A DNA stretch of 5,396 bases from a virus (taxonomy: Duplodnaviria; Heunggongvirae; Uroviricota; Caudoviricetes): IMG/VR virus record IMGVR_UViG_2778261244_000001; one strand, 5' to 3'. Position numbers and translations under genes: made by a program. The notes below the pieces were generated by a model. It was not told the DNA's origin. It saw only the letters and a list, made by a program, of their open reading frames with translations, and ran no database searches. Positions 1-5,396 of this stretch are shown piece after piece (positions within the stretch are counted from its first letter, which is position 1; the number at the start of each line of letters is the position of its first letter).

Positions 1-26
1 TAGTCTAAAAACTAGTATTAAGACTA

Positions 27-1385
27 TCACTTATTTAAGTGATACTGGTTGTCTGGAGATTCAGGGGGCCAGTCTACCGTGTATGTGCCATTTTTTCGGG
101 CAAAATATTCTTCTTTTGTGATTTCAGTGGCGCCAGCAGCCAGTGCCTTATCCAGACCAGAGAGTTTGTTTGCGCGACCGTATTTTTCTCCGTCCTTATC
201 TGCGAAGAGGAAATAGAACGGCCCCTCACGCTCTACAGATGGTTCAGCTTCCGGCGCGGTTTCATTTTTTGGGATATCAGATACCTCAGTTTCCACTGCA
301 TCAGTTTGTGTTTCTGATGACTGGAGAACATCAACAGTGCCCAGGTCTGTTTCTTCATTCTCAAACACGCCCTTTGTCGTCAGGTATTCGCAGATATATT
401 TGTTCAGTGCTACGGGATCTTTGTGAATGTCGATCGGACGCTCACGGACAAGGCCAAAAATAGTTTGGCGGTCGTAGCGAAGGGCATCAGGCTGTTTGCG
501 CATTGATGCCGAGATACGCTTCCAGTCTTCGCGGTCGTTGTCGATAACTTCTTTTTTTGCCCAGCGATGGATGCTGCCGTCAATGTTTCCGGCATCCACA
601 TCACTAGGCCAGAGAGCGTAGGCCAGTTCGTCATCCAGTGTTTTCCATGTCTGCTTGTATTCGCGATGAATGGCAGCAATGACCGGGCTGATTTTTCCTG
701 TTGAATTTTCAGTGTACTGTTGATTGGCTCTGGCGCGGGCGAGATCAACAACAGACGTGTATTTTCCGGTTTCCTTGCGTTCACCTTCGCGACGTTTTTT
801 CCAGATGCGCATCTCTGCCTGAATTTCGGGCCATTTAGCACCAGGAATACATTTATGCTTAACCCACCCAATGGCGTGCAACTTAAGCTCCGGATACATG
901 GCGTTAACTTCTGGCATTTTCATCAACGCTTCAACGATATGTCCGTCGAATGTTGCCATGTCTTCCTGCAACAATTCCTGTGCGCTAATAACCATATCAA
1001 CGGTGATGTTTTCACATGTGTCGAACTTAACCATGACAGCGTTCTGTACTTCAGGGGCCAGCTTGTCAAAAGTGACGTTCATCGGATCGGATTCAGTCTC
1101 AACCGGGACAAAAGAAGCAGACTCCTCATCCCAGCGGTTTTCCTGCATATATTCAGCATCCCATGAATCGAGGGCAGGGCGGGGTATGCCAGGTTTATCC
1201 TCGCAGACAATAAATTTATAAGCGCAGTCCTGAGCAGCCGGATAATGTTCCAGGAATTGCCAGTGAAATTTTGCTCGAGCACGGCGTTCGTCGCCAGCTT
1301 CAATGGCTGTGGCTACAGCCACAGCGCCTTCTTCCCTTGTTGCCAGTTCGTCAGGAATAGCGGCGCAAATAAAGACTTTACTCAT
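27..1385 (-). CDS. Hypothetical protein, 452 aa, strongly acidic C-terminal third; family not recognised
   Basis: Long uninterrupted ORF (track 27..1421, TTG at 1419-1421). Preferred start is ATG at 1383-1385 (MSKVFICAAIP...), preceded in mRNA sense by GAGG about 9 nt upstream. Stop TGA at 27-29. No ATPase, nuclease or methyltransferase motif recognised by eye. Confidence 0.8.
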   Translation of the reverse strand: MSKVFICAAIPDELATREEGAVAVATAIEAGDERRARAKFHWQFLEHYPAAQDCAYKFIVCEDKPGIPRPALDSWDAEYMQENRWDEESASFVPVETESDPMNVTFDKLAPEVQNAVMVKFDTCENITVDMVISAQELLQEDMATFDGHIVEALMKMPEVNAMYPELKLHAIGWVKHKCIPGAKWPEIQAEMRIWKKRREGERKETGKYTSVVDLARARANQQYTENSTGKISPVIAAIHREYKQTWKTLDDELAYALWPSDVDAGNIDGSIHRWAKKEVIDNDREDWKRISASMRKQPDALRYDRQTIFGLVRERPIDIHKDPVALNKYICEYLTTKGVFENEETDLGTVDVLQSSETQTDAVETEVSDIPKNETAPEAEPSVEREGPFYFLFADKDGEKYGRANKLSGLDKALAAGATEITKEEYFARKNGTYTVDWPPESPDNQYHLNK

Positions 1386-1477
1386 TTGTTTTAACCTCAT
1401 GACAGATTTAAGGATGAACAAATCCCTGCCATTGCTGGCATATAAGAATGAAACCGGATATTTATTACGGAACTGTT

Positions 1478-1669
1478 TTAAAGACCTGCCGGGATTTCGA
1501 TATTATCCTGGTGAATAACTTTATCGACCGGGTAACAGTTACCGGGAATTTTCTGTTCGGTTGCTGCAGTCATACACTCCTGCATTGTCCTGTGAACACT
1601 GACTGCAATATCAACTGGCTCTCCGGAAACAAGAAAAACTGTCAGAACAAGCACAAATGCTGAATTCAT
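1478..1669 (-). CDS. Small putative secreted/periplasmic protein, 63 aa (MNSAFVLVLTVFLVSG... then polar region with two Cys)
   Basis: ATG at 1667-1669 preceded by AAGGA with 8-nt spacing. Start overlaps the upstream gene's stop as ATGA (translational coupling). N-terminus is a hydrophobic signal-peptide-like stretch. Part of track ORF 1478..1723; earlier starts lack an RBS. Confidence 0.45.
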   Translation of the reverse strand: MNSAFVLVLTVFLVSGEPVDIAVSVHRTMQECMTAATEQKIPGNCYPVDKVIHQDNIEIPAGL

Positions 1670-1854
1670 TGTGCACATCCTTTTGGCATCAGACGTAAAC
1701 GAGCCAGCATTGAAACAATGCATATTTTATTTAATAGCTCCCGTTCTTGTTTTCTCTTGTTAATGGCATCTTCAGTAAATACTGGGTTACTGATAGTGAC
1801 ACCAATTTCAAAACAACCTTCAGACGTATTAACGTTTGGTAATAACGTTTTCAT
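1666..1854 (-). CDS. Small hypothetical protein, 62 aa (MKTLLPNVNTSEGCFEIGV...)
   Basis: ATG at 1852-1854 preceded by GAGGA with 7-nt spacing. Stop TGA overlaps the start of the next gene (ATGA). Charged, protein-like composition; first gene of an apparent three-gene minus-strand operon. Confidence 0.4.
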   Translation of the reverse strand: MKTLLPNVNTSEGCFEIGVTISNPVFTEDAINKRKQERELLNKICIVSMLARLRLMPKGCAQ

Positions 1855-1906
1855 TATCGCGTCCTCAACAATGAATTTTGTGATGCAGTGCCTGGTGCCT
1901 CCAGGT

Positions 1907-1933
1907 GACGTTAACCAGTTAACAATTAACGCC
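1907..1933. promoter_or_regulatory. Cluster of three TTAAC motifs (GTTAAC-N2-GTTAAC-N2-TTAACG) in the divergent intergenic region; candidate operator
   Basis: Directly visible: GTTAAC at 1910-1915 and 1918-1923, ATTAACG at 1925-1931. Lies between the minus-strand operon start (1854) and the plus-strand ORF start (1938). No protein-binding evidence. Confidence 0.2.
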
Positions 1934-1937
1934 GGAT

Positions 1938-2267
1938 ATGTGCTGTGGCAGCCGCATGTTCTGGTTCGATAAGTCTGACGAACGGGCGATATTCAGCGAT
2001 ATCAGAAAAGAAGGATACACATTACGCAATGGGAGACGCTTGATTATCAGCCCTGACATTATCGCAGATTTTCGTGCATTATCATTTGCAGACGCATCTT
2101 TTTCGATGGTTGTATTAGACCCTCCGCATCTTGAGAGTGTTGGTGATAACGCCTGGATGGGAAAGAAATATGGACGGCTGAATAAAGATGCCTGGCGTGA
2201 TGATTCGCGACAGAGATTTAAAGAAGCCTTTCGGGTGTTGAGGCCGCACGGCGTTCTGATTTTTTAA
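1938..2267 (+). pseudogene. DNA (N6-adenine/N4-cytosine-type) methyltransferase-like fragment, 109 codons, DPPH motif; probably truncated
   Basis: Translation contains ...ADASFSMVVLDPPHLESVG... (D-P-P-H at nt 2118-2129), resembling motif IV (hydrophobic run + DPP[YFW]) of amino-methyltransferases, then ...RVLRPHGVLIF. Frame ends at TAA 2265-2267 but stays open for 29 more codons (WNETQIPVSQILAL...) to TAA 2355-2357. Too short for a full enzyme; no motif I (FxGxG) seen. Confidence 0.4.
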
Positions 2268-2426
2268 TGGAATGAAACGCAAATACCGGTAAGCCAGATT
2301 CTGGCACTGACAGACAGAAAACCTGTTATCTGTCAACGAACAGGGAAAAAACGATAAAACCCACTGGATTATTTTTATGAAAGAGGCATCCAGTGAGTAG
2401 ATTCGTAAGGCTACAGATACGTATAT

Positions 2427-2444
2427 CTGAATAATTAAATTCAG
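2427..2444. promoter_or_regulatory. Inverted repeat CTGAAT-N6-ATTCAG in an AT-rich intergenic stretch; candidate operator
   Basis: Perfect 6-bp arms at 2427-2432 and 2439-2444, about 85 bp upstream of the ORF at 2530. No clear sigma70 -35/-10 pair could be assigned. Confidence 0.2.
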
Positions 2445-2500
2445 TTCTGTAAATAAAATTTAATCCTTAACCGGATGGATTTCTGCACCCTCAGAACATC

Positions 2501-2532
2501 AGGAGGCCGCCCGAAAGGGCGGTAGTGAAATG
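2501..2532 (+). promoter_or_regulatory. Structured translation-initiation region: AGGAGG, then a 6-bp all-GC stem with GAAA loop, then ATG
   Basis: AGGAGG 2501-2506; stem CCGCCC 2507-2512 / GGGCGG 2517-2522 with GAAA loop; ATG at 2530. Linear SD-ATG spacing is about 23 nt, but about 7 nt if the hairpin forms. No U-tract follows, so not an intrinsic terminator. Confidence 0.3.
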
Positions 2533-2640
2533 CGAAAGTTCAAAATTATTATTGAAACGGGAATAGCTGGTGGAGATTTTGAGGATGTATTCGAAGTGGA
2601 CGATGACGCAACACCTGAGGAAATTCATGACGGAGCATAA
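2530..2640 (+). CDS. Small acidic ORF, 36 aa (MRKFKIIIETGIAGGDFEDVFEVDDDATPEEIHDGA)
   Basis: ATG 2530, TAA 2638-2640, preceded by the SD-hairpin arrangement. Too short for compositional support; may be a remnant. Confidence 0.3.
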   Translation: MRKFKIIIETGIAGGDFEDVFEVDDDATPEEIHDGA

Positions 2641-2881
2641 GAAATTTTCTTTAACTACTGCAATTACTCATACCACGAAATAAAAGACGATGAGGAAGAA
2701 CAAAGTGGCTGATTTTTGTTCAGCTAAATATAACATCAGTTTTGAAGAGCGGGATGAACTATTAATGGACTATGGTGAGTTACGCGGTGGAAGTGCTGCT
2801 GATGTCGAATCCTAGCGTGATGACTATGAAGCGGGAAAAACTCCGGTCGAAGCATATTGTGATGAGTGGGGCGATGAATGA
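2627..2881 (+). pseudogene. Small ORF interrupted by in-frame TAA (2681-2683) and TAG (2813-2815); reading frame otherwise continuous to TGA
   Basis: ATG 2627 preceded by GAGG with 6-nt spacing. Frame reads MTEHKKFSLTTAITHTTK-TAA-KTMRKNKVADFCSAKYNISFEERDELLMDYGELRGGSAADVES-TAG-RDDYEAGKTPVEAYCDEWGDE-TGA. The last 21 codons have no start codon of their own and end in an ATGA overlap with the next gene. Confidence 0.35.
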
Positions 2882-3165
2882 GCGAGATTAATTATCAGGA
2901 AGGGCATGAAACGGCGGGGCAAGCAAAACCAGTGGCATGGCGATATCGCTACGTGAAAAAAGGCGTTACGGACTTTCAGGGGAAGTAGTGGTCTGGTGAC
3001 TGGAAATATGTACCGAAAAAAGAGGATTGTAACGACAGGCCGAACTATCAAATTCAGGCCTTATTCACTGCCTCACCAGTCCCAGTTACATCAGAAGAAC
3101 TGGTTAAAGCTGTGCACTTTTATGAACAACTAAAACGCGAAAATCCACCAACATCCGGCAACTAG
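2878..3165 (+). pseudogene. Small phage-like ORF interrupted by one in-frame amber codon (TAG 2986-2988); 36 aa + stop + 58 aa in one frame
   Basis: ATG 2878 with purine-rich GGGG 6 nt upstream, and ATGA overlap with the upstream frame. Translation MSEINYQEGHETAGQAKPVAWRYRYVKKGVTDFQGK-TAG-WSGDWKYVPKKEDCNDRPNYQIQALFTASPVPVTSEELVKAVHFYEQLKRENPPTSGN-TAG. The downstream part is protein-like; the antisense ORF looks like junk. Confidence 0.45.
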
Positions 3166-3419
3166 ATTAATGGATTAACTATGTCGGTTAAACGACCAGC
3201 CAACTGAAAAAGCGGAAACCTGATTACAGGTTGCCAGATAAGGCAATGAGCTACCTGGCGCGGAACGGACTGATAAGTATGGGGAATGTTTTACGATGAA
3301 CCTTTAGACTAAAGAGTTTGTAACGCTATGTAAGTGATTTTTTCTGGTTTAGATATTTATATGTCCGGCCAAATTGAGGTGTGTTTAAATGTAATTGCAC
3401 ATTGATTGTAGGAGGAATA

Positions 3420-3599
3420 ATGAAAAACGCATTGCAGTTTTTGTTTGTTGCGTTCTGGTTGTTCGCATCATGTATGCCCATCATCTTCACAGCAAGGTAT
3501 ATGGAAAAAGTTGATGTTTTGATATTAATATTTGGATATATAAATGCCCTTTTTTTAGGGGTGTTCATGGCGGTCATGTGCATTGAATACTGGCGGTAA
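3420..3599 (+). CDS. Small hydrophobic protein, 59 aa, two predicted transmembrane helices
   Basis: Strong RBS AGGAGG (3410-3415) 4 nt before ATG 3420; stop TAA 3597-3599. Two hydrophobic segments (ALQFLFVAFWLFASCMPIIF and VLILIFGYINALFLGVFMAVMCI) separated by a short charged loop (TARYMEKVD). Gene is visibly AT-rich compared with its flanks. Confidence 0.55.
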   Translation: MKNALQFLFVAFWLFASCMPIIFTARYMEKVDVLILIFGYINALFLGVFMAVMCIEYWR

Positions 3600-3829
3600 A
3601 TACAGCGAACTCCATTGGTTTAGTTGGATATTTACTGTGCTGGACAAAAACGGTTTGCGGGGAAATCTTAGTTAAGTAGAATGACTGCGGGTGCTTGAGG
3701 CTATCTGCCTCGGGCATGGACACCAACGGCAGATAGAGAAAAGCCCCAGTTAACATTACGCGTCCTGCAAGACGCTTAACATTAATCTGAGGCCAATTTC
3801 ATGCTAGACACATGTAGGTTAGCCTCTTA

Positions 3830-3845
3830 CGTGCCGAAAGGCACG
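3830..3845. other. Stable hairpin CGTGCC-GAAA-GGCACG (GNRA-type tetraloop), not followed by a T-tract
   Basis: Perfect 6-bp stem with GAAA loop, about 90 bp upstream of the transposase start. Same architecture as the hairpin at 2507-2522. Confidence 0.3.
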
Positions 3846-3904
3846 GAGAAGCAGGCTATTGTTAACACCAAGCTGTAATGTCCCCTTTGAACCATTCTAA
3901 AATG

Positions 3905-3936
3905 TCCCCAGACAATTCTCTGGGGGATTTTTCATG
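3905..3936 (+). promoter_or_regulatory. Hairpin that places the transposase Shine-Dalgarno (GGGGGA) in its 3' arm
   Basis: TCCCCA 3905-3910 pairs with TGGGGG 3921-3926 (5 Watson-Crick pairs plus one G-U), 10-nt loop; ATG at 3934 lies 7 nt after the stem. RBS occlusion is a known way IS elements limit transposase translation. Confidence 0.35.
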
Positions 3937-5247
3937 ATCAAAGAGACTGTTACGATGAGTCATAAGGAACTCCACCGACTTCAGATTATTCAGGAACAAG
4001 CTGCGGCACGCATTGGCATTTCTATTCGGCAGGTTAAACGTCTGGTGCAACGGTATAGAAATGAAGGGCCTTCTGGTCTGGTTTCCCACCGACGTGGAAA
4101 GCGTCCTAATAATTCCTTTTCTACTGAATTCAGAGCAACAGTAATTTCACTCCTCAAAGGCCGTTACGCTGATTTTGGACCTACGTTTGCGTGCGAAAAA
4201 TTGCGCGAGATACACGGTTTATCTTTATCCGTTGAAACTCTCAGAAAGTGGATGATAGAAGTGGGGTTATGGCGTGAACGCCGTCGTAAAATTGCCCGTA
4301 TATATCAACGCCGCATGCGACGACCATCTTACGGTGAACTGATCCAGATTGATGGCTCACCTCATGACTGGTTTGAAAATCGAGGCCCCAGATGTACACT
4401 GATCGTTTTCATTGATGATGCCACCAGTGCGTTGATGGCGTTGCGTTTTGTGCCTGCTGAAACAACCCGGGCTTACATGGAAACCCTCCGGGGTTACCTT
4501 AATGATCATGGCGTACCGCTCGCTCTCTACTCTGATAGACACAGTATATTCAGGGTAAATAACCCAGAGCGGGAAGGTGAGCTGACCCAGTTCACTCGTG
4601 CGATAAAGACACTGGGCATCGAGCCAATCCATGCCAACAGCCCGCAGGCAAAAGGGCGGGTAGAGCGCGCCAATCAGACACTACAGGACAGGCTGGTCAA
4701 AGAAATGCGGCTTCAGAATATCAGTGATATTGAAACAGCAAATGCATGGTTGCCGACCTTTATTGAAGCCTATAACAACCGGTTCGCTACGTCGCCTCGT
4801 ACTACTGATAATGCTCATCTTGATGTGCACCATTCTGAAGAGGAACTGGGTTATATCTTCAGCCTACAGGCGAAGCGCGTTCTGTCTAAAAATCTCACTT
4901 TCCAGTACAAAAGCAGTGCGTTTCAGGTACGCAGTGAGGGCCGGGGATATCGACTTAGGCATTCGGTTGTTACTGTATGCGAGAACTTTGACGGTGAAAT
5001 TAACGTTCTGTATGACGGGAAAGCGCTGGGCTGGGAAAAGTATGTTGATGGCCCGGAGCCTATACCACTGGATGATGAAAAGAGTGTCCATGAACGAGTG
5101 GATAATGCCCGTATTGATTTACGCTCAAAATACTATGTTAAACCTAAAGCTGACCATCCCTGGCTTACGCGCCGAACGCAAAGTCATCAGCAAGTTAAGC
5201 CCCCGAAGTTACCTAAAAAGAAGCCTGATCCCGATAAAAAAGATTGA
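3934..5247 (+). CDS. DDE transposase (rve/integrase-core fold), ISNCY (IS1202-group) / IS481-like, 437 aa
   Basis: Intact 1314-nt ORF. N-terminal helix-turn-helix-like region (AAARIGISIRQVKRLVQRYRNEGPSGLVSHRRGKRP). Candidate catalytic residues in IQIDGSPHDW / VFIDDATS, LALYSDRHSIF, and GRVERANQTLQDRL (the G-x-V-E-R-x-N signature of retroviral-integrase-type transposases). Basic C-terminal tail. The ATG at 3955 (MSHKELHRLQII...) is an alternative start. Confidence 0.9.
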   Translation: MIKETVTMSHKELHRLQIIQEQAAARIGISIRQVKRLVQRYRNEGPSGLVSHRRGKRPNNSFSTEFRATVISLLKGRYADFGPTFACEKLREIHGLSLSVETLRKWMIEVGLWRERRRKIARIYQRRMRRPSYGELIQIDGSPHDWFENRGPRCTLIVFIDDATSALMALRFVPAETTRAYMETLRGYLNDHGVPLALYSDRHSIFRVNNPEREGELTQFTRAIKTLGIEPIHANSPQAKGRVERANQTLQDRLVKEMRLQNISDIETANAWLPTFIEAYNNRFATSPRTTDNAHLDVHHSEEELGYIFSLQAKRVLSKNLTFQYKSSAFQVRSEGRGYRLRHSVVTVCENFDGEINVLYDGKALGWEKYVDGPEPIPLDDEKSVHERVDNARIDLRSKYYVKPKADHPWLTRRTQSHQQVKPPKLPKKKPDPDKKD

Positions 5248-5279
5248 AACCAAGATCGATTCGGTTGAGTGCATTGATC

Positions 5280-5396
5280 CTACCCACGTAATATGGACAC
5301 AGGCCTAAGCGAGGTTCTGGTTTTCAAATTGTTCCGGACTGAGGCCGCCACACCAACTGTGCCGCCGCCACCGATTGTAATCACATTCGATATAAT
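5280..5396 (-). CDS. Possible 3' end of a minus-strand gene entering from the right edge (C-terminal 38 codons, glycine-rich: ...NVITIGGGGTVGVAASVRNNLKTRTSLRPVSILRG)
   Basis: Open frame from the window edge to TAG at 5280-5282; higher GC than the neighbouring DNA. Too short to identify; could be chance. Confidence 0.2.
   Translation of the reverse strand: MISNVITIGGGGTVGVAASVRNNLKTRTSLRPVSILRG

What the first reader, a model, noticed from the sequence alone, without database searches (positions are those of the whole stretch)
3420..3599. AT-rich gene for a 59-aa two-transmembrane-helix protein with a near-consensus RBS
A strong AGGAGG RBS implies the gene is expressed, and the AT-rich composition suggests it was acquired separately from its neighbours. 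Small two-helix membrane proteins in such settings include holin-like or pinholin-like proteins, superinfection-exclusion or immunity proteins, and membrane-depolarising toxins or abortive-infection effectors. No endolysin gene is adjacent, so a canonical lysis cassette is unlikely. It lies immediately upstream of the IS and could be cargo mobilised or activated by it.
Basis: partly seen in the sequence, partly recalled or inferred. Interest (0 to 1): 0.5.

Follow-up and report, generated by a model that had tools for sequence, protein, structure and literature searches.

The report
Unannotated small prophage membrane-protein gene
The 59-codon ORF is a real gene that standard annotation misses: it encodes a small membrane protein of unknown function, sits on an AT-rich accessory cassette of a Qin-type E. 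coli prophage just upstream of a hok/sok toxin locus, and has nothing to do with the nearby insertion sequence.

Summary
ORF 3420-3599 (59 aa) follows AGGAGG-N4-ATG, has 37% GC against 45% for the window, and has two hydrophobic segments. The window is a decayed Qin-type lambdoid prophage of E. coli. The ORF is a genuine gene. An exhaustive protein search found a 59-aa paralogue (41% identity, no gaps, same start and stop) at the Rac attachment region in 1045 of 5426 E. coli genomes. Identity by codon position is 0.58/0.71/0.47, dN/dS is about 0.2, and the flanks do not align. ORF59 is intact in 107 of 108 copies sampled independently of the ORF, whereas the antisense ORF is full length in only 51 of 108. 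RefSeq annotates nothing at either gene, and there is no Pfam, NCBIfam, PHROG or PADLOC match. The gene lies on a ~345-bp cassette between a decayed early gene and the hokD/sok promoter. About 5% of related loci carry a different 27-aa peptide cassette in that slot. The IS-cargo idea is refuted: an orphaned sok/hok leader (3689-3860) separates the ORF from the ISNCY element, the ORF lies outside that element's 15-bp target duplication, and most related loci have no IS there. An invariant lipobox-like S17-C18 leaves the topology open between a two-helix hairpin and a lipoprotein. Function is untested; I favour an envelope-acting prophage accessory protein.

The parts
3299..3645 (+). AT-rich accessory (moron-like) cassette carrying ORF59. 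The left edge is just after the stop codon (3296-3298) of the decayed upstream early gene. The right edge is where related loci with the alternative cassette re-converge (AAAAACGGTTTGCGG from 3646).
   Evidence: GC is 36% against 45% for the window. In a sample anchored on the hok promoter, 108 of 114 loci carry this cassette and 6 carry an ~80-bp alternative encoding a 27-aa hydrophobic peptide.
3410..3415 (+). Shine-Dalgarno sequence AGGAGG, 4 nt upstream of the ATG. It is polymorphic (A/G at 3413 gives AGGGGG).
   Evidence: allele counts 57 to 49.
3420..3599 (+). ORF59 coding sequence (59 aa, stop included): MKNALQFLFVAFWLFASCMPIIFTARYMEKVDVLILIFGYINALFLGVFMAVMCIEYWR.
   Evidence: Codon periodicity. 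Intact in 107 of 108 unbiased copies. Paralogue with dN/dS about 0.2 and codon-position identity 0.58/0.71/0.47. Lower polymorphism than the flanks, p = 0.036 and 0.0097. Two predicted helices.
3459..3473 (+). Codons 14-18 (L-F-A-S-C), a lipobox-like motif with invariant S17-C18. This is the possible SPase II cleavage and lipidation site.
   Evidence: PROSITE PS51257 rule met in every member of both subfamilies; about 9% of TM1 shuffles match by chance. S17 and C18 are invariant.
3550..3556 (+). T7 homopolymer inside codons 44-46, the site of the frameshifted variants seen in protein databases.
   Evidence: Frameshifted database entries. Only 1 of 108 in the unbiased sample. 1540 of 1554 complete genomes are identical over 3538-3597.
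2878..3298 (+). Decayed upstream early-region gene (frameshifted, internal stop). Its intact homologue (phrog_660 type, unknown function) ends at the same TGA in loci with the alternative cassette.
   Evidence: PGAP pseudogene call in identical DNA; tblastn against the intact homologue; PHROG hits.
3655..3682 (+). Putative hok promoter (TTGCGG-N16-TAGAAT) immediately downstream of the cassette. Context, not part of the gene.
   Evidence: Read by eye; its position fits the Rfam leader start at 3689. Inference.
3689..3860 (+). Orphaned 5' leader of a hokD/sok locus (mok/sok region), cut off at the hok start codon.
   Evidence: Rfam RF01794 sok, 104.1 bits against a gathering score of 59, E = 1.3e-23. 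In phage vB_EcoS-640R1 the same leader continues into an intact hokD CDS.
3845..3859 (+). Left copy of the 15-bp target-site duplication GGAGAAGCAGGCTAT (hok SD and start) made by the ISNCY-type element.
   Evidence: The same 15-mer precedes the hokD CDS at the right junction in L001.
3860..5274 (+). Left part of an ISNCY-family element: IRL 3860-3885 and a 437-aa transposase ORF at 3934-5247. It is truncated in the window by IS3. ORF59 lies outside it.
   Evidence: NCBIfam NF033594 ISNCY transposase, E = 2e-136. Terminal inverted repeats match at 19 of 26 positions, and the complete element is 3274 bp in L001.
5275..5396 (-). End of an IS3 element that interrupts the ISNCY-type element.
   Evidence: In E. 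coli 1303 identical DNA runs into an annotated IS3-family transposase. Most other genomes lose homology at 5274.

Best explanation
ORF59 is a genuine protein-coding gene that RefSeq does not annotate. It belongs to a two-branch protein family found only in E. coli and Shigella, carried on AT-rich accessory cassettes of lambdoid prophages. Shown here: the reading frame is under protein-level constraint. The gene occupies a defined slot between the last early ('nin-like') gene and the hokD/sok locus of Qin-type phages. It is independent of the neighbouring ISNCY element. Inferred: the product inserts into the cytoplasmic membrane. I estimate a 55% chance that it is an N-in/C-in two-helix hairpin packed through the small-residue face G39-x3-A43-x3-G47 of helix 2. 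I estimate a 35% chance that it is a pre-lipoprotein cleaved before the invariant C18, leaving a 42-residue lipid-anchored single-pass peptide. In the intact phage it would be transcribed with the early rightward operon, and possibly also from a weak promoter of its own. Most likely role (inference only, about 30%): an envelope-acting prophage accessory protein that benefits the lysogen, of the superinfection-exclusion or phage-defence type, working by binding or perturbing a host inner-membrane component. I do not think it is a lysis protein or the toxin of a toxin-antitoxin pair.
For: Coding status: the paralogue P0037/P0042 has the same length, aligns without gaps, and shares 24 of 59 residues. 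Identity by codon position is 0.58/0.71/0.47, pN is 0.34 against pS 0.72, and the flanks are unalignable. T is enriched at codon position 2 (p = 0.005) and GC3 is 51%. ORF59 is intact in 107 of 108 copies sampled by anchoring on hok, while the antisense ORF is full length in 51 of 108. Polymorphism is lower than in the cassette flanks (7 of 180 against 18 of 182 sites, p = 0.036; non-singletons p = 0.0097). 1540 of 1554 complete genomes are identical over the 3' 60 nt. Membrane protein: hydropathy, two AF2 helices, charge pattern of N-terminus +1/+2 with a neutral or acidic loop. Accessory cassette: GC 36%, and replaced by an alternative cassette in 6 of 114 loci. Prophage setting of both branches. 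Not IS cargo. Not lysis: no holin or other family hit, and the lysis genes lie elsewhere. Not an obvious TA toxin: no partner gene or RNA next to the paralogue, and the ORF stays intact in about 1550 genomes beside decayed neighbours.
Against: There is no expression or phenotype data, and no paper contains either sequence. The family is narrow, with two branches and no members outside E. coli and Shigella, so constraint rests on a single deep comparison. Within the ORF59 branch all 7 polymorphisms are non-synonymous and none synonymous. That is odd for simple purifying selection, and the copies are so similar that intactness is only weakly informative. No consensus promoter or terminator was found for the gene. 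The RBS is weakened to AGGGGG in 46% of copies. PGAP never calls the gene. The functional assignment is by elimination and analogy only.
Confidence: 0.55

Rival explanations
1. Topology rival: the first hydrophobic segment is a lipoprotein signal peptide and not a transmembrane helix. Lgt and LspA would process the precursor at L-F-A-S|C18. The mature 42-residue peptide would be lipid-anchored on the periplasmic face of the inner membrane and held by the single C-terminal helix (33-55).
For: All members of both subfamilies satisfy PROSITE PS51257: K/R in the first 7 residues, an uncharged h-region, [AGS]-C, and Cys at position 18. The paralogue has the strict lipobox V-I-S-C. S17, C18 and P20-I-I form the densest block of invariant residues, while residues 1-16 are poorly conserved, as in signal peptides. 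The common A16V allele is compatible with a lipobox.
Against: About 9% of TM1 shuffles match the rule by chance. F at position -3 in ORF59 is unusual (own knowledge). AF2 models a continuous helix 2-26. There is no Pfam LPAM hit even at E = 10. Conserved residues in 5-27 also fit an i+3/i+4 helical face, as expected for a packed hairpin.
Confidence: 0.35
2. Membrane-damaging toxin or abortive-infection effector. The small hydrophobic peptide would oligomerise, depolarise the inner membrane when induced, and kill or arrest the cell, as Hok or GhoT do.
For: Size and hydrophobicity. A small-residue motif G39-x3-A43-x3-G47, typical of oligomerising helices (own knowledge of glycine zippers). Location next to a hok/sok locus in a prophage region rich in toxin-antitoxin genes such as relBE and hokD.
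Against: No antitoxin gene or antisense RNA was found beside either branch. A strong SD with no visible repression would be hard to tolerate for a toxin, yet the ORF is intact in about 99% of carriers, including badly decayed prophages. No PADLOC hit. Linkage to hok is by descent within near-identical DNA, and the paralogue has no hok.
Confidence: 0.18
3. Small regulatory subunit. Like AcrZ, MgtS, MgrB or SgrT, the peptide would bind and modulate a specific host transporter or sensor in the inner membrane, a function domesticated from the prophage.
For: Retained intact in cryptic prophage remnants whose neighbours are pseudogenes. Position-specific conservation of polar and small residues within the helices (W13, S17, C18, P20, T24, N42, E56, W58, R59).
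Against: No partner can be inferred from either gene neighbourhood. The gene is patchy, present in 29% and 19% of genomes. No experimental data.
Confidence: 0.15
4. Chance ORF in an AT-rich, T-rich spacer. Hydrophobic 'helices' would be what translation of T-rich DNA produces, and the AGGAGG would be fortuitous.
For: ORF length alone is not significant (p = 0.14). PGAP never calls it. No synonymous polymorphism. AGGAGG-N-ATG occurs somewhere in 20% of window shuffles.
Against: A paralogue with 59% nucleotide identity keeps the exact 59-codon frame with no indel, with aligned start and stop and the position 2 > 1 > 3 conservation pattern, while its flanks do not align. Codon periodicity. The antisense frame decays while the sense frame does not.
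Confidence: 0.05
5. Holin or pinholin-like lysis protein (class II, two TMDs).
For: Two predicted TMDs with probable N-in/C-in orientation, and a small-residue zipper in TMD2 that resembles pinholin S21-68 (own knowledge).
Against: Not in or near the lysis cassette: essQ/essD, the endolysin and the spanins lie beyond Q. The C-terminal tail is only EYWR with net charge 0, and there is no dual-start motif. No holin HMM match in Pfam, PHROG or NCBIfam. The paralogue stands alone in a remnant with no lysis genes.
Confidence: 0.03
6. Passenger gene of the adjacent IS, or a gene activated by it; or the real gene is the 85-aa antisense ORF (3326-3583, minus strand) that phage annotators called.
For: Proximity to the ISNCY transposase. 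The antisense ORF is annotated as 'hornerin' or 'hypothetical' in three phage records.
Against: ORF59 lies 245 bp outside the element's target duplication and IRL, with the hok leader in between. Most related loci have no IS there. An outward promoter at IRL would read antisense to ORF59. The antisense ORF is truncated in 57 of 108 copies, has no SD, and is not preserved in the paralogue, where the longest stretch is 44 codons.
Confidence: 0.02

Closest known systems
Phage 'morons' and accessory cassettes encoding small inner-membrane superinfection-exclusion proteins (for example HK97 gp15, T4 Imm; from my own knowledge)
   Same: A small hydrophobic protein encoded on a compositionally distinct insert, present in some related phages and replaced in others. 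It is located among non-essential genes and retained in lysogens.
   Different: No sequence or HMM similarity to any described exclusion protein. No promoter or terminator pair was detected. No phenotype has been tested.
Class II holins / pinholin S21-68 (own knowledge)
   Same: About 60-70 aa, two TMDs, probable N-in/C-in orientation, and a small-residue (Gly/Ala) zipper in TMD2.
   Different: Wrong genomic position (early region, not the lysis cassette). No basic C-terminal tail, no dual start, no adjacent endolysin or spanin, and no HMM hit.
Small membrane toxins: Hok/Gef (type I) and GhoT (type V, 57 aa, two TMDs; own knowledge)
   Same: Size, hydrophobicity, prophage or TA-rich neighbourhood, and direct adjacency to a hok/sok locus.
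   Different: Not homologous to Hok. The Rfam sok/hok element is a separate downstream unit. No antitoxin or antisense partner was found, and the paralogue is solitary.
Small phage or plasmid lipoproteins (Cor of phi80/N15, Llp of T5, colicin lysis proteins, Rz1) and unimolecular spanins such as T1 gp11 (own knowledge)
   Same: N-terminal K/R plus a hydrophobic segment plus a lipobox Cys at about residue 18. Like u-spanins, it combines a lipobox with a C-terminal TMD.
   Different: Only about 14 residues separate the Cys from the TMD, far too short to span the periplasm as a spanin must. It is not in a lysis cassette. Cor, Llp and the colicin lysis proteins have no C-terminal TMD. Lipidation is untested.

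Membership tests
Protein-coding gene (as opposed to a chance ORF) | Frame, length, start and stop preserved in a diverged homologue, with codon-position asymmetry and dN<dS | tested here: met
   ORF59 against P0042: 59 codons, no gaps, identity 0.58/0.71/0.47 by codon position (p = 0.03), pN 0.34 against pS 0.72.
Phage moron / accessory cassette | Present between conserved neighbours in some related phages and absent or replaced in others | tested here: met
   108 of 114 hok-anchored loci have the ORF59 cassette and 6 have a different 80-bp cassette; the junctions lie at the upstream stop codon and just before the hok promoter.
Phage moron / accessory cassette | Base composition distinct from the surrounding genome | tested here: met
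   36% GC against 45% for the window.
Phage moron / accessory cassette | Own promoter and terminator allowing expression from the repressed prophage | tested here: inconclusive
   No consensus promoter or terminator in 3100-3950. There is only an extended -10-like TGTTTAAAT at 3382-3390, seen by eye and partly shared with the paralogue.
Class II holin / pinholin | Encoded in the lysis cassette next to endolysin and spanin genes, downstream of Q | tested here: not met
   ORF59 lies upstream of hokD, rem, ydfU and Q; the lysis genes come after Q. The paralogue stands alone.
Class II holin / pinholin | Two TMDs with a charged, basic cytoplasmic C-terminal tail; often a dual-start motif | tested here: not met
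   Two predicted helices, but the tail is EYWR with net charge 0 and there is a single start Met.
Class II holin / pinholin | Match to a holin family profile | tested here: not met
   No Pfam, NCBIfam or PHROG hit.
Hok/Gef type I toxin | Hok-family peptide with a mok/sok/fbi RNA architecture | tested here: not met
   The Rfam sok/hok element is at 3689-3860, downstream of and separate from ORF59. Nothing was detected over ORF59 or near the paralogue.
Bacterial lipoprotein | PROSITE PS51257 rule (K/R in residues 1-7, uncharged h-region, lipobox, Cys at 15-35) | tested here: met
   Met by all 7 family sequences tested, with Cys18; the chance rate is about 9% in TM1 shuffles.
Bacterial lipoprotein | Lgt/LspA-dependent lipidation and cleavage (globomycin sensitivity, palmitate labelling) | not testable with these tools
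   Needs experiment; no SignalP or LipoP was available.
Unimolecular spanin | Lipobox plus C-terminal TMD joined by a periplasm-spanning domain, encoded in the lysis cassette | tested here: not met
   Only about 14 residues lie between C18 and the TMD, and the gene is not in the lysis cassette.
IS passenger gene | Located between the element's terminal inverted repeats, inside the target-site duplication | tested here: not met
   The TSD copy is at 3845-3859 and IRL starts at 3860, while ORF59 ends at 3599. 70% of related loci lack the IS.
Known anti-phage defence system component | Match to a PADLOC model | tested here: not met
   No hit for ORF59, the paralogue or the alternative peptide at E <= 1.

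The most novel reading that the evidence does not exclude
ORF59 and its paralogue define an undescribed family of prophage-encoded 59-aa pre-lipoproteins. The mature 42-residue form would be both lipid-anchored and membrane-spanning, and would act at the inner membrane as a new type of superinfection-exclusion or envelope-modulating effector. The family is present in roughly a fifth to nearly half of E. coli genomes (29% and 19% for the two branches; overlap not measured) yet missing from RefSeq annotation.
Probability: 0.15. Interest if true: 0.6.

Novelty: new member of a known kind. Interest (0 to 1): 0.35.

Why it matters
Small membrane proteins are systematically missed by annotation. Here a conserved family present in 1586 (ORF59 branch) and 1045 (paralogue) of 5426 complete E. 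coli genomes carries no RefSeq feature. K-12 MG1655 has deleted the ORF59 locus, so the K-12 small-protein surveys could not have seen ORF59. If the protein turns out to be an exclusion, defence or regulatory factor, it would add a widespread prophage-borne trait to E. coli biology. If it is a lipid-anchored single-pass peptide, its architecture would be unusual. Taken alone, a small hydrophobic prophage gene of unknown function is a common kind of finding, so its present value is mainly as a well-supported candidate for experiment and as a correction to annotation.

Tried and rejected
1. Family assignment by HMM libraries gave no hit for ORF59: Pfam (also at E = 10), NCBIfam, PHROGs and PADLOC. 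The paralogue, scanned against Pfam (E = 10) and PADLOC only, gave just a sub-threshold DUF4212 match (E = 0.07, 13.9 bits against a cutoff of 30).
2. A fold search of the AF2 hairpin against the PDB returned only generic helical hairpins, none better than E = 3. It is uninformative for a protein this small.
3. A word-indexed protein search with ORF59 and a profile search with both subfamilies found no members beyond the two E. coli/Shigella branches. A GTDB species-representative scan gave 3 loci, all E. coli or Shigella. One of them (L008, '53% identity') is the same DNA with many indels (89% identity, 24 gap openings) and was discarded as probably an error-prone assembly.
4. The first polymorphism analysis used loci selected by similarity to the ORF and was therefore biased. 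I replaced it with a sample anchored on the hok promoter.
5. Frameshifting at the T7 tract suggested decay or phase variation. I rejected this because 1 of 108 unbiased copies and at most 14 of 1554 complete genomes differ there.
6. The antisense 85-aa ORF that phage annotators called ('hornerin') is not conserved.
7. IS cargo or IS activation was rejected.
8. The consensus promoter and terminator scan found none for ORF59. A minus-strand terminator-like hairpin at 3232-3217 lies inside the upstream pseudogene and its sequence differs in phage 640R1 (3 of 16 stem positions), so I treated it as chance.
9. Literature: neither peptide sequence occurs in the searchable library. In the passages I retrieved from the 2025 Hok survey (12 of 29 term matches), nothing describes a neighbouring gene.
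10. The paralogue was not found in any complete phage record. The plasmid hits are large non-mobilisable records or a Qin-like fragment.
Full report
WHAT THE WINDOW IS

The 5.4-kb window is a decayed Qin-type lambdoid prophage of E. coli.

- On the minus strand it encodes a truncated exonuclease/ydfE gene (77-1388), ydfD (DUF1482) and dicB.
- Identical DNA occurs in many E. coli chromosomes. E. coli 1303, G4/9 and PigCaeca_2 match positions 77-5396 at 100%.
- Compared with fuller versions of the prophage (CP026085, phage PhiR42_1), the window has lost the dicF-to-DUF977 segment. As a result dicB abuts a methyltransferase fragment.
- Bases 1-76 are the end of a multi-copy IS (median 3 copies per genome, with a transposase pseudogene starting 16 nt away in an independent genome).
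- Bases 5275-5396 are an IS3 end.
- K-12 MG1655 has deleted everything between ydfX and ydfW, including the finding. The K-12 small-protein surveys therefore could not have seen this ORF.

THE OBSERVATION

- AGGAGG lies at 3410-3415, four bases before the ATG. It is the only AGGAGG-N3-9-ATG in the window.
- GC is 37% for the ORF against 45% for the window.
- There are two strongly hydrophobic stretches. AlphaFold2, run on a nine-sequence family alignment, gives helices 2-26 and 28-58 with mean pLDDT 74.
- The RBS is not fixed. In related copies 57 have AGGAGG and 49 have AGGGGG.

IS IT A GENE?

RefSeq/PGAP annotates nothing here in any of the records listed, out of 1587 matching E. coli records. 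Three phage records annotate the antisense ORF instead. No Pfam, NCBIfam, PHROG or PADLOC model matches. ORF length alone is unremarkable: p = 0.14 in shuffles of the AT-rich cassette. Four lines of evidence nevertheless show that it is coding.

1. Codon structure. T is 53% at codon position 2 against 37% and 24% at positions 1 and 3 (p = 0.005). GC3 is 51% against 34% and 29%. The AT-richness therefore comes from amino-acid composition and not from uniformly AT-rich DNA.

2. Intactness in an unbiased sample. I anchored on the hok promoter and leader 62 bp downstream of the ORF and collected 119 IMG/VR contigs without reference to the ORF.
   - Of 114 informative loci, 108 carry the cassette.
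   - In 107 of those 108 the ORF is an intact 59 codons.
   - The overlapping antisense ORF is full length in only 51 of 108.

3. Polymorphism. It is lower in the ORF (7 of 180 sites) than in the non-coding parts of the same cassette (18 of 182). Fisher p is 0.036 for all sites and 0.0097 for non-singletons.

4. A diverged paralogue, which is the decisive evidence. An exhaustive phmmer search of 1.84 billion cluster representatives found a second branch of the family (P0037/P0042).
   - It is also exactly 59 aa and 41% identical, and it aligns end to end without a gap.
   - At DNA level the two genes are 59% identical with no indel, and the start and stop codons are in register.
   - Identity by codon position is 0.58/0.71/0.47 (p = 0.03).
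   - pN is 0.34 against pS 0.72, giving dN/dS of about 0.2 with dS saturated.
   - The flanks are essentially unalignable, and the antisense frame is not preserved.

The frameshifted variants at the T7 tract (3550-3556) that are conspicuous in the protein database are not representative. 1540 of 1554 complete genomes are identical over 3538-3597.

One oddity remains. Within the ORF59 branch all seven polymorphisms are non-synonymous (A16V, V31I, I37M, Y40H, L44I, V48G, V52G) and none is synonymous. About 3.4 synonymous changes would be expected at the flank rate (P = 0.03). The M37/H40 alleles match the paralogue state, so the window allele is derived.

THE FAMILY

There are two branches only, both confined to E. 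coli and Shigella.

- ORF59 type: found in 1586 of 5426 complete genomes.
- Paralogue: found in 1045 of 5426 genomes. It lies at the Rac attachment region (ttcA, then an integrase remnant, the paralogue, sit-gene fragments, uspF and ompN). It is again AT-rich, unannotated by PGAP and without any hok/sok nearby.
- Database names are only 'hypothetical protein', 'membrane protein' or 'uncharacterized membrane protein'. No paper in the searchable library contains either sequence.
- In the six-sequence alignment the invariant residues are M1, L5, L8, W13, S17, C18, P20, I21, I22, T24, Y27, L36, F38, G39, N42, A43, L44, V48, F49, I55, E56, W58 and R59. Adding rarer variants removes Y27, V48, F49 and I55 from that list.
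- G39-x3-A43-x3-G47 forms a small-residue face of the kind used for tight helix packing (own knowledge). G47 is replaced by Val in one rare paralogue variant (P0044).

GENOMIC SETTING

Alignment with phage vB_EcoS-640R1 and the anchored sample define a ~345-bp cassette (3299 to about 3645, GC 36%).

- It begins right after the stop codon of the upstream early gene. That gene is a phrog_660-type gene of unknown function, decayed in the window and apparently decayed, with only fragments aligning, in all ORF59-bearing loci examined.
- It ends just before the hok promoter.
- In 6 of 114 loci the slot holds a different ~80-bp cassette. This encodes a 27-aa hydrophobic peptide (MTWPEAFTTTGIAMASALVVYSVCRWG) whose ATG overlaps the upstream stop codon.
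- ORF59 therefore behaves like a moron or accessory cassette in the early-right ('nin-like') region.
- The uninterrupted gene order is ORF59, hok/sok-hokD, rem, ydfU, Q, and then the lysis genes.

THE IS QUESTION

Immediately downstream of the cassette, Rfam finds a full-length sok/hok leader at 3689-3860 (104 bits against a gathering score of 59).

- In about 70% of related loci this leader runs into an intact hokD. In the window it stops at the hok start codon.
- Comparison with a longer locus shows why. A 3274-bp element is inserted there. It is bounded by imperfect inverted repeats (19 of 26 positions match) and a 15-bp direct duplication (GGAGAAGCAGGCTAT; the left copy is at 3845-3859).
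- That element carries the ISNCY-family transposase (NF033594, E = 2e-136), flxA, ydfV and relBE.
- ORF59 ends 245 bp outside the duplication. It is therefore neither cargo of the element nor plausibly activated by it.

WHAT IT PROBABLY DOES

Shown: it is a constrained small hydrophobic protein encoded by prophage accessory DNA.

Inferred: it is an inner-membrane protein.

Topology is open between two models.
- Hairpin model. The charge pattern (N-terminus +1 or +2, loop neutral or acidic) and AF2 fit an N-in/C-in hairpin.
- Lipoprotein model. Every family member also satisfies the PROSITE lipoprotein rule with the invariant S17-C18, and the paralogue has a canonical V-I-S-C lipobox. About 9% of TM1 shuffles match by chance. 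The first segment may therefore be an SPase II signal peptide, leaving a 42-residue lipid-anchored single-pass peptide.

Function by elimination.
- It is not a holin: wrong location, no charged tail, no HMM hit.
- It is not a spanin: only about 14 residues lie between the Cys and the TMD.
- It is unlikely to be a free-standing toxin: no partner was found, it has a strong SD, and it is intact in about 99% of carriers even in decayed prophages.

I therefore favour, at about 30%, an envelope-acting accessory protein that benefits the lysogen, of the superinfection-exclusion or defence type. The rivals are a membrane toxin or Abi effector (about 18%) and a small regulator of a host membrane protein (about 15%). 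None of these is tested.

VERDICT

The result is a new, unannotated family of a familiar kind: small prophage-encoded membrane proteins. It is of moderate interest, mainly as a well-founded candidate for experiment and as an annotation gap.

Noticed in passing
window 3689-5274; L001 6391-9862: The hokD/sok locus is split at the hok start codon by a 3274-bp ISNCY-family element. The element has a 15-bp target-site duplication (GGAGAAGCAGGCTAT) and imperfect inverted repeats matching at 19 of 26 positions. It carries the transposase, flxA, ydfV and relBE. The relBE-hokD ('relBEF') arrangement of Qin therefore looks like the product of a transposon carrying relBE landing in a hok/sok locus, which left an orphaned sok/mok leader (window 3689-3860).
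   Followed up: partly
window 3934-5247: The ISNCY transposase ORF is an intact 437 codons here. PGAP annotates it as an incomplete pseudogene plus a separate 'ydfW' gene. K-12's ydfW is simply the C-terminal remnant of this transposase, left by the ydfX-ydfW deletion.
   Followed up: partly
L101, L137, L160, L195, L200, L204 (the ~80 bp upstream of the hok promoter): An alternative cassette occupies the ORF59 slot in about 5% of related loci. It encodes a 27-aa hydrophobic peptide (MTWPEAFTTTGIAMASALVVYSVCRWG) whose ATG overlaps the stop of an intact phrog_660-type upstream gene. Two unrelated small hydrophobic peptides thus alternate at the same position. No family hit was found.
   Followed up: partly
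L209 6001-6180 (and L210-L216): The paralogue of ORF59 (59 aa, 41% identity) sits between an integrase remnant and sit-gene fragments at the Rac attachment region (ttcA...uspF). It is present in 1045 of 5426 complete E. coli genomes and is not annotated by PGAP.
   Followed up: yes
window ~1855-1940: A deletion junction joins dicB directly to a truncated SAM-methyltransferase gene. It removes dicF, ydfABC, dicA, dicC, ydaT-like, O-like and DUF977 genes that are present in fuller copies. The same junction exists in E. coli 1303, G4/9 and PigCaeca_2. A sub-threshold Rfam STnc100 hit (20.9 bits, E = 0.21) lies at 1879-2030 on the minus strand.
   Followed up: no
window 1-76: This is the end of a multi-copy IS (up to 41 copies per genome) that truncates the exonuclease/ydfE gene at position 77. 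K-12 has an IS2 fragment in the same gene but at a different position, equivalent to window 619. I recall the sequence as IS2, but the annotation of a matching locus names only a 'transposase'.
   Followed up: partly
window 3413; 3530 and 3537: There are common polymorphisms among related copies. A/G at 3413 turns the SD from AGGAGG into AGGGGG in 46% of copies. The I37M and Y40H alleles (41% of copies) match the paralogue residues, so the window carries the derived state.
   Followed up: yes
window 2530-3298: The early-region genes upstream of ORF59 (DUF7167/phrog_1997-like, phrog_519-like and phrog_660-like) carry internal stops or frameshifts in the window, and the last is also disrupted in phage vB_EcoS-640R1. 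ORF59 stays intact next to them.
   Followed up: partly
L217 (NZ_CP069920.1, 'Klebsiella oxytoca plasmid unnamed9', 9.5 kb linear): This record is a Qin-type E. coli phage fragment whose proteins are identical to E. coli ones. It is likely contamination or a phage fragment and not a Klebsiella plasmid. It shows the uninterrupted order ORF59, hokD, rem, ydfU, Q.
   Followed up: no
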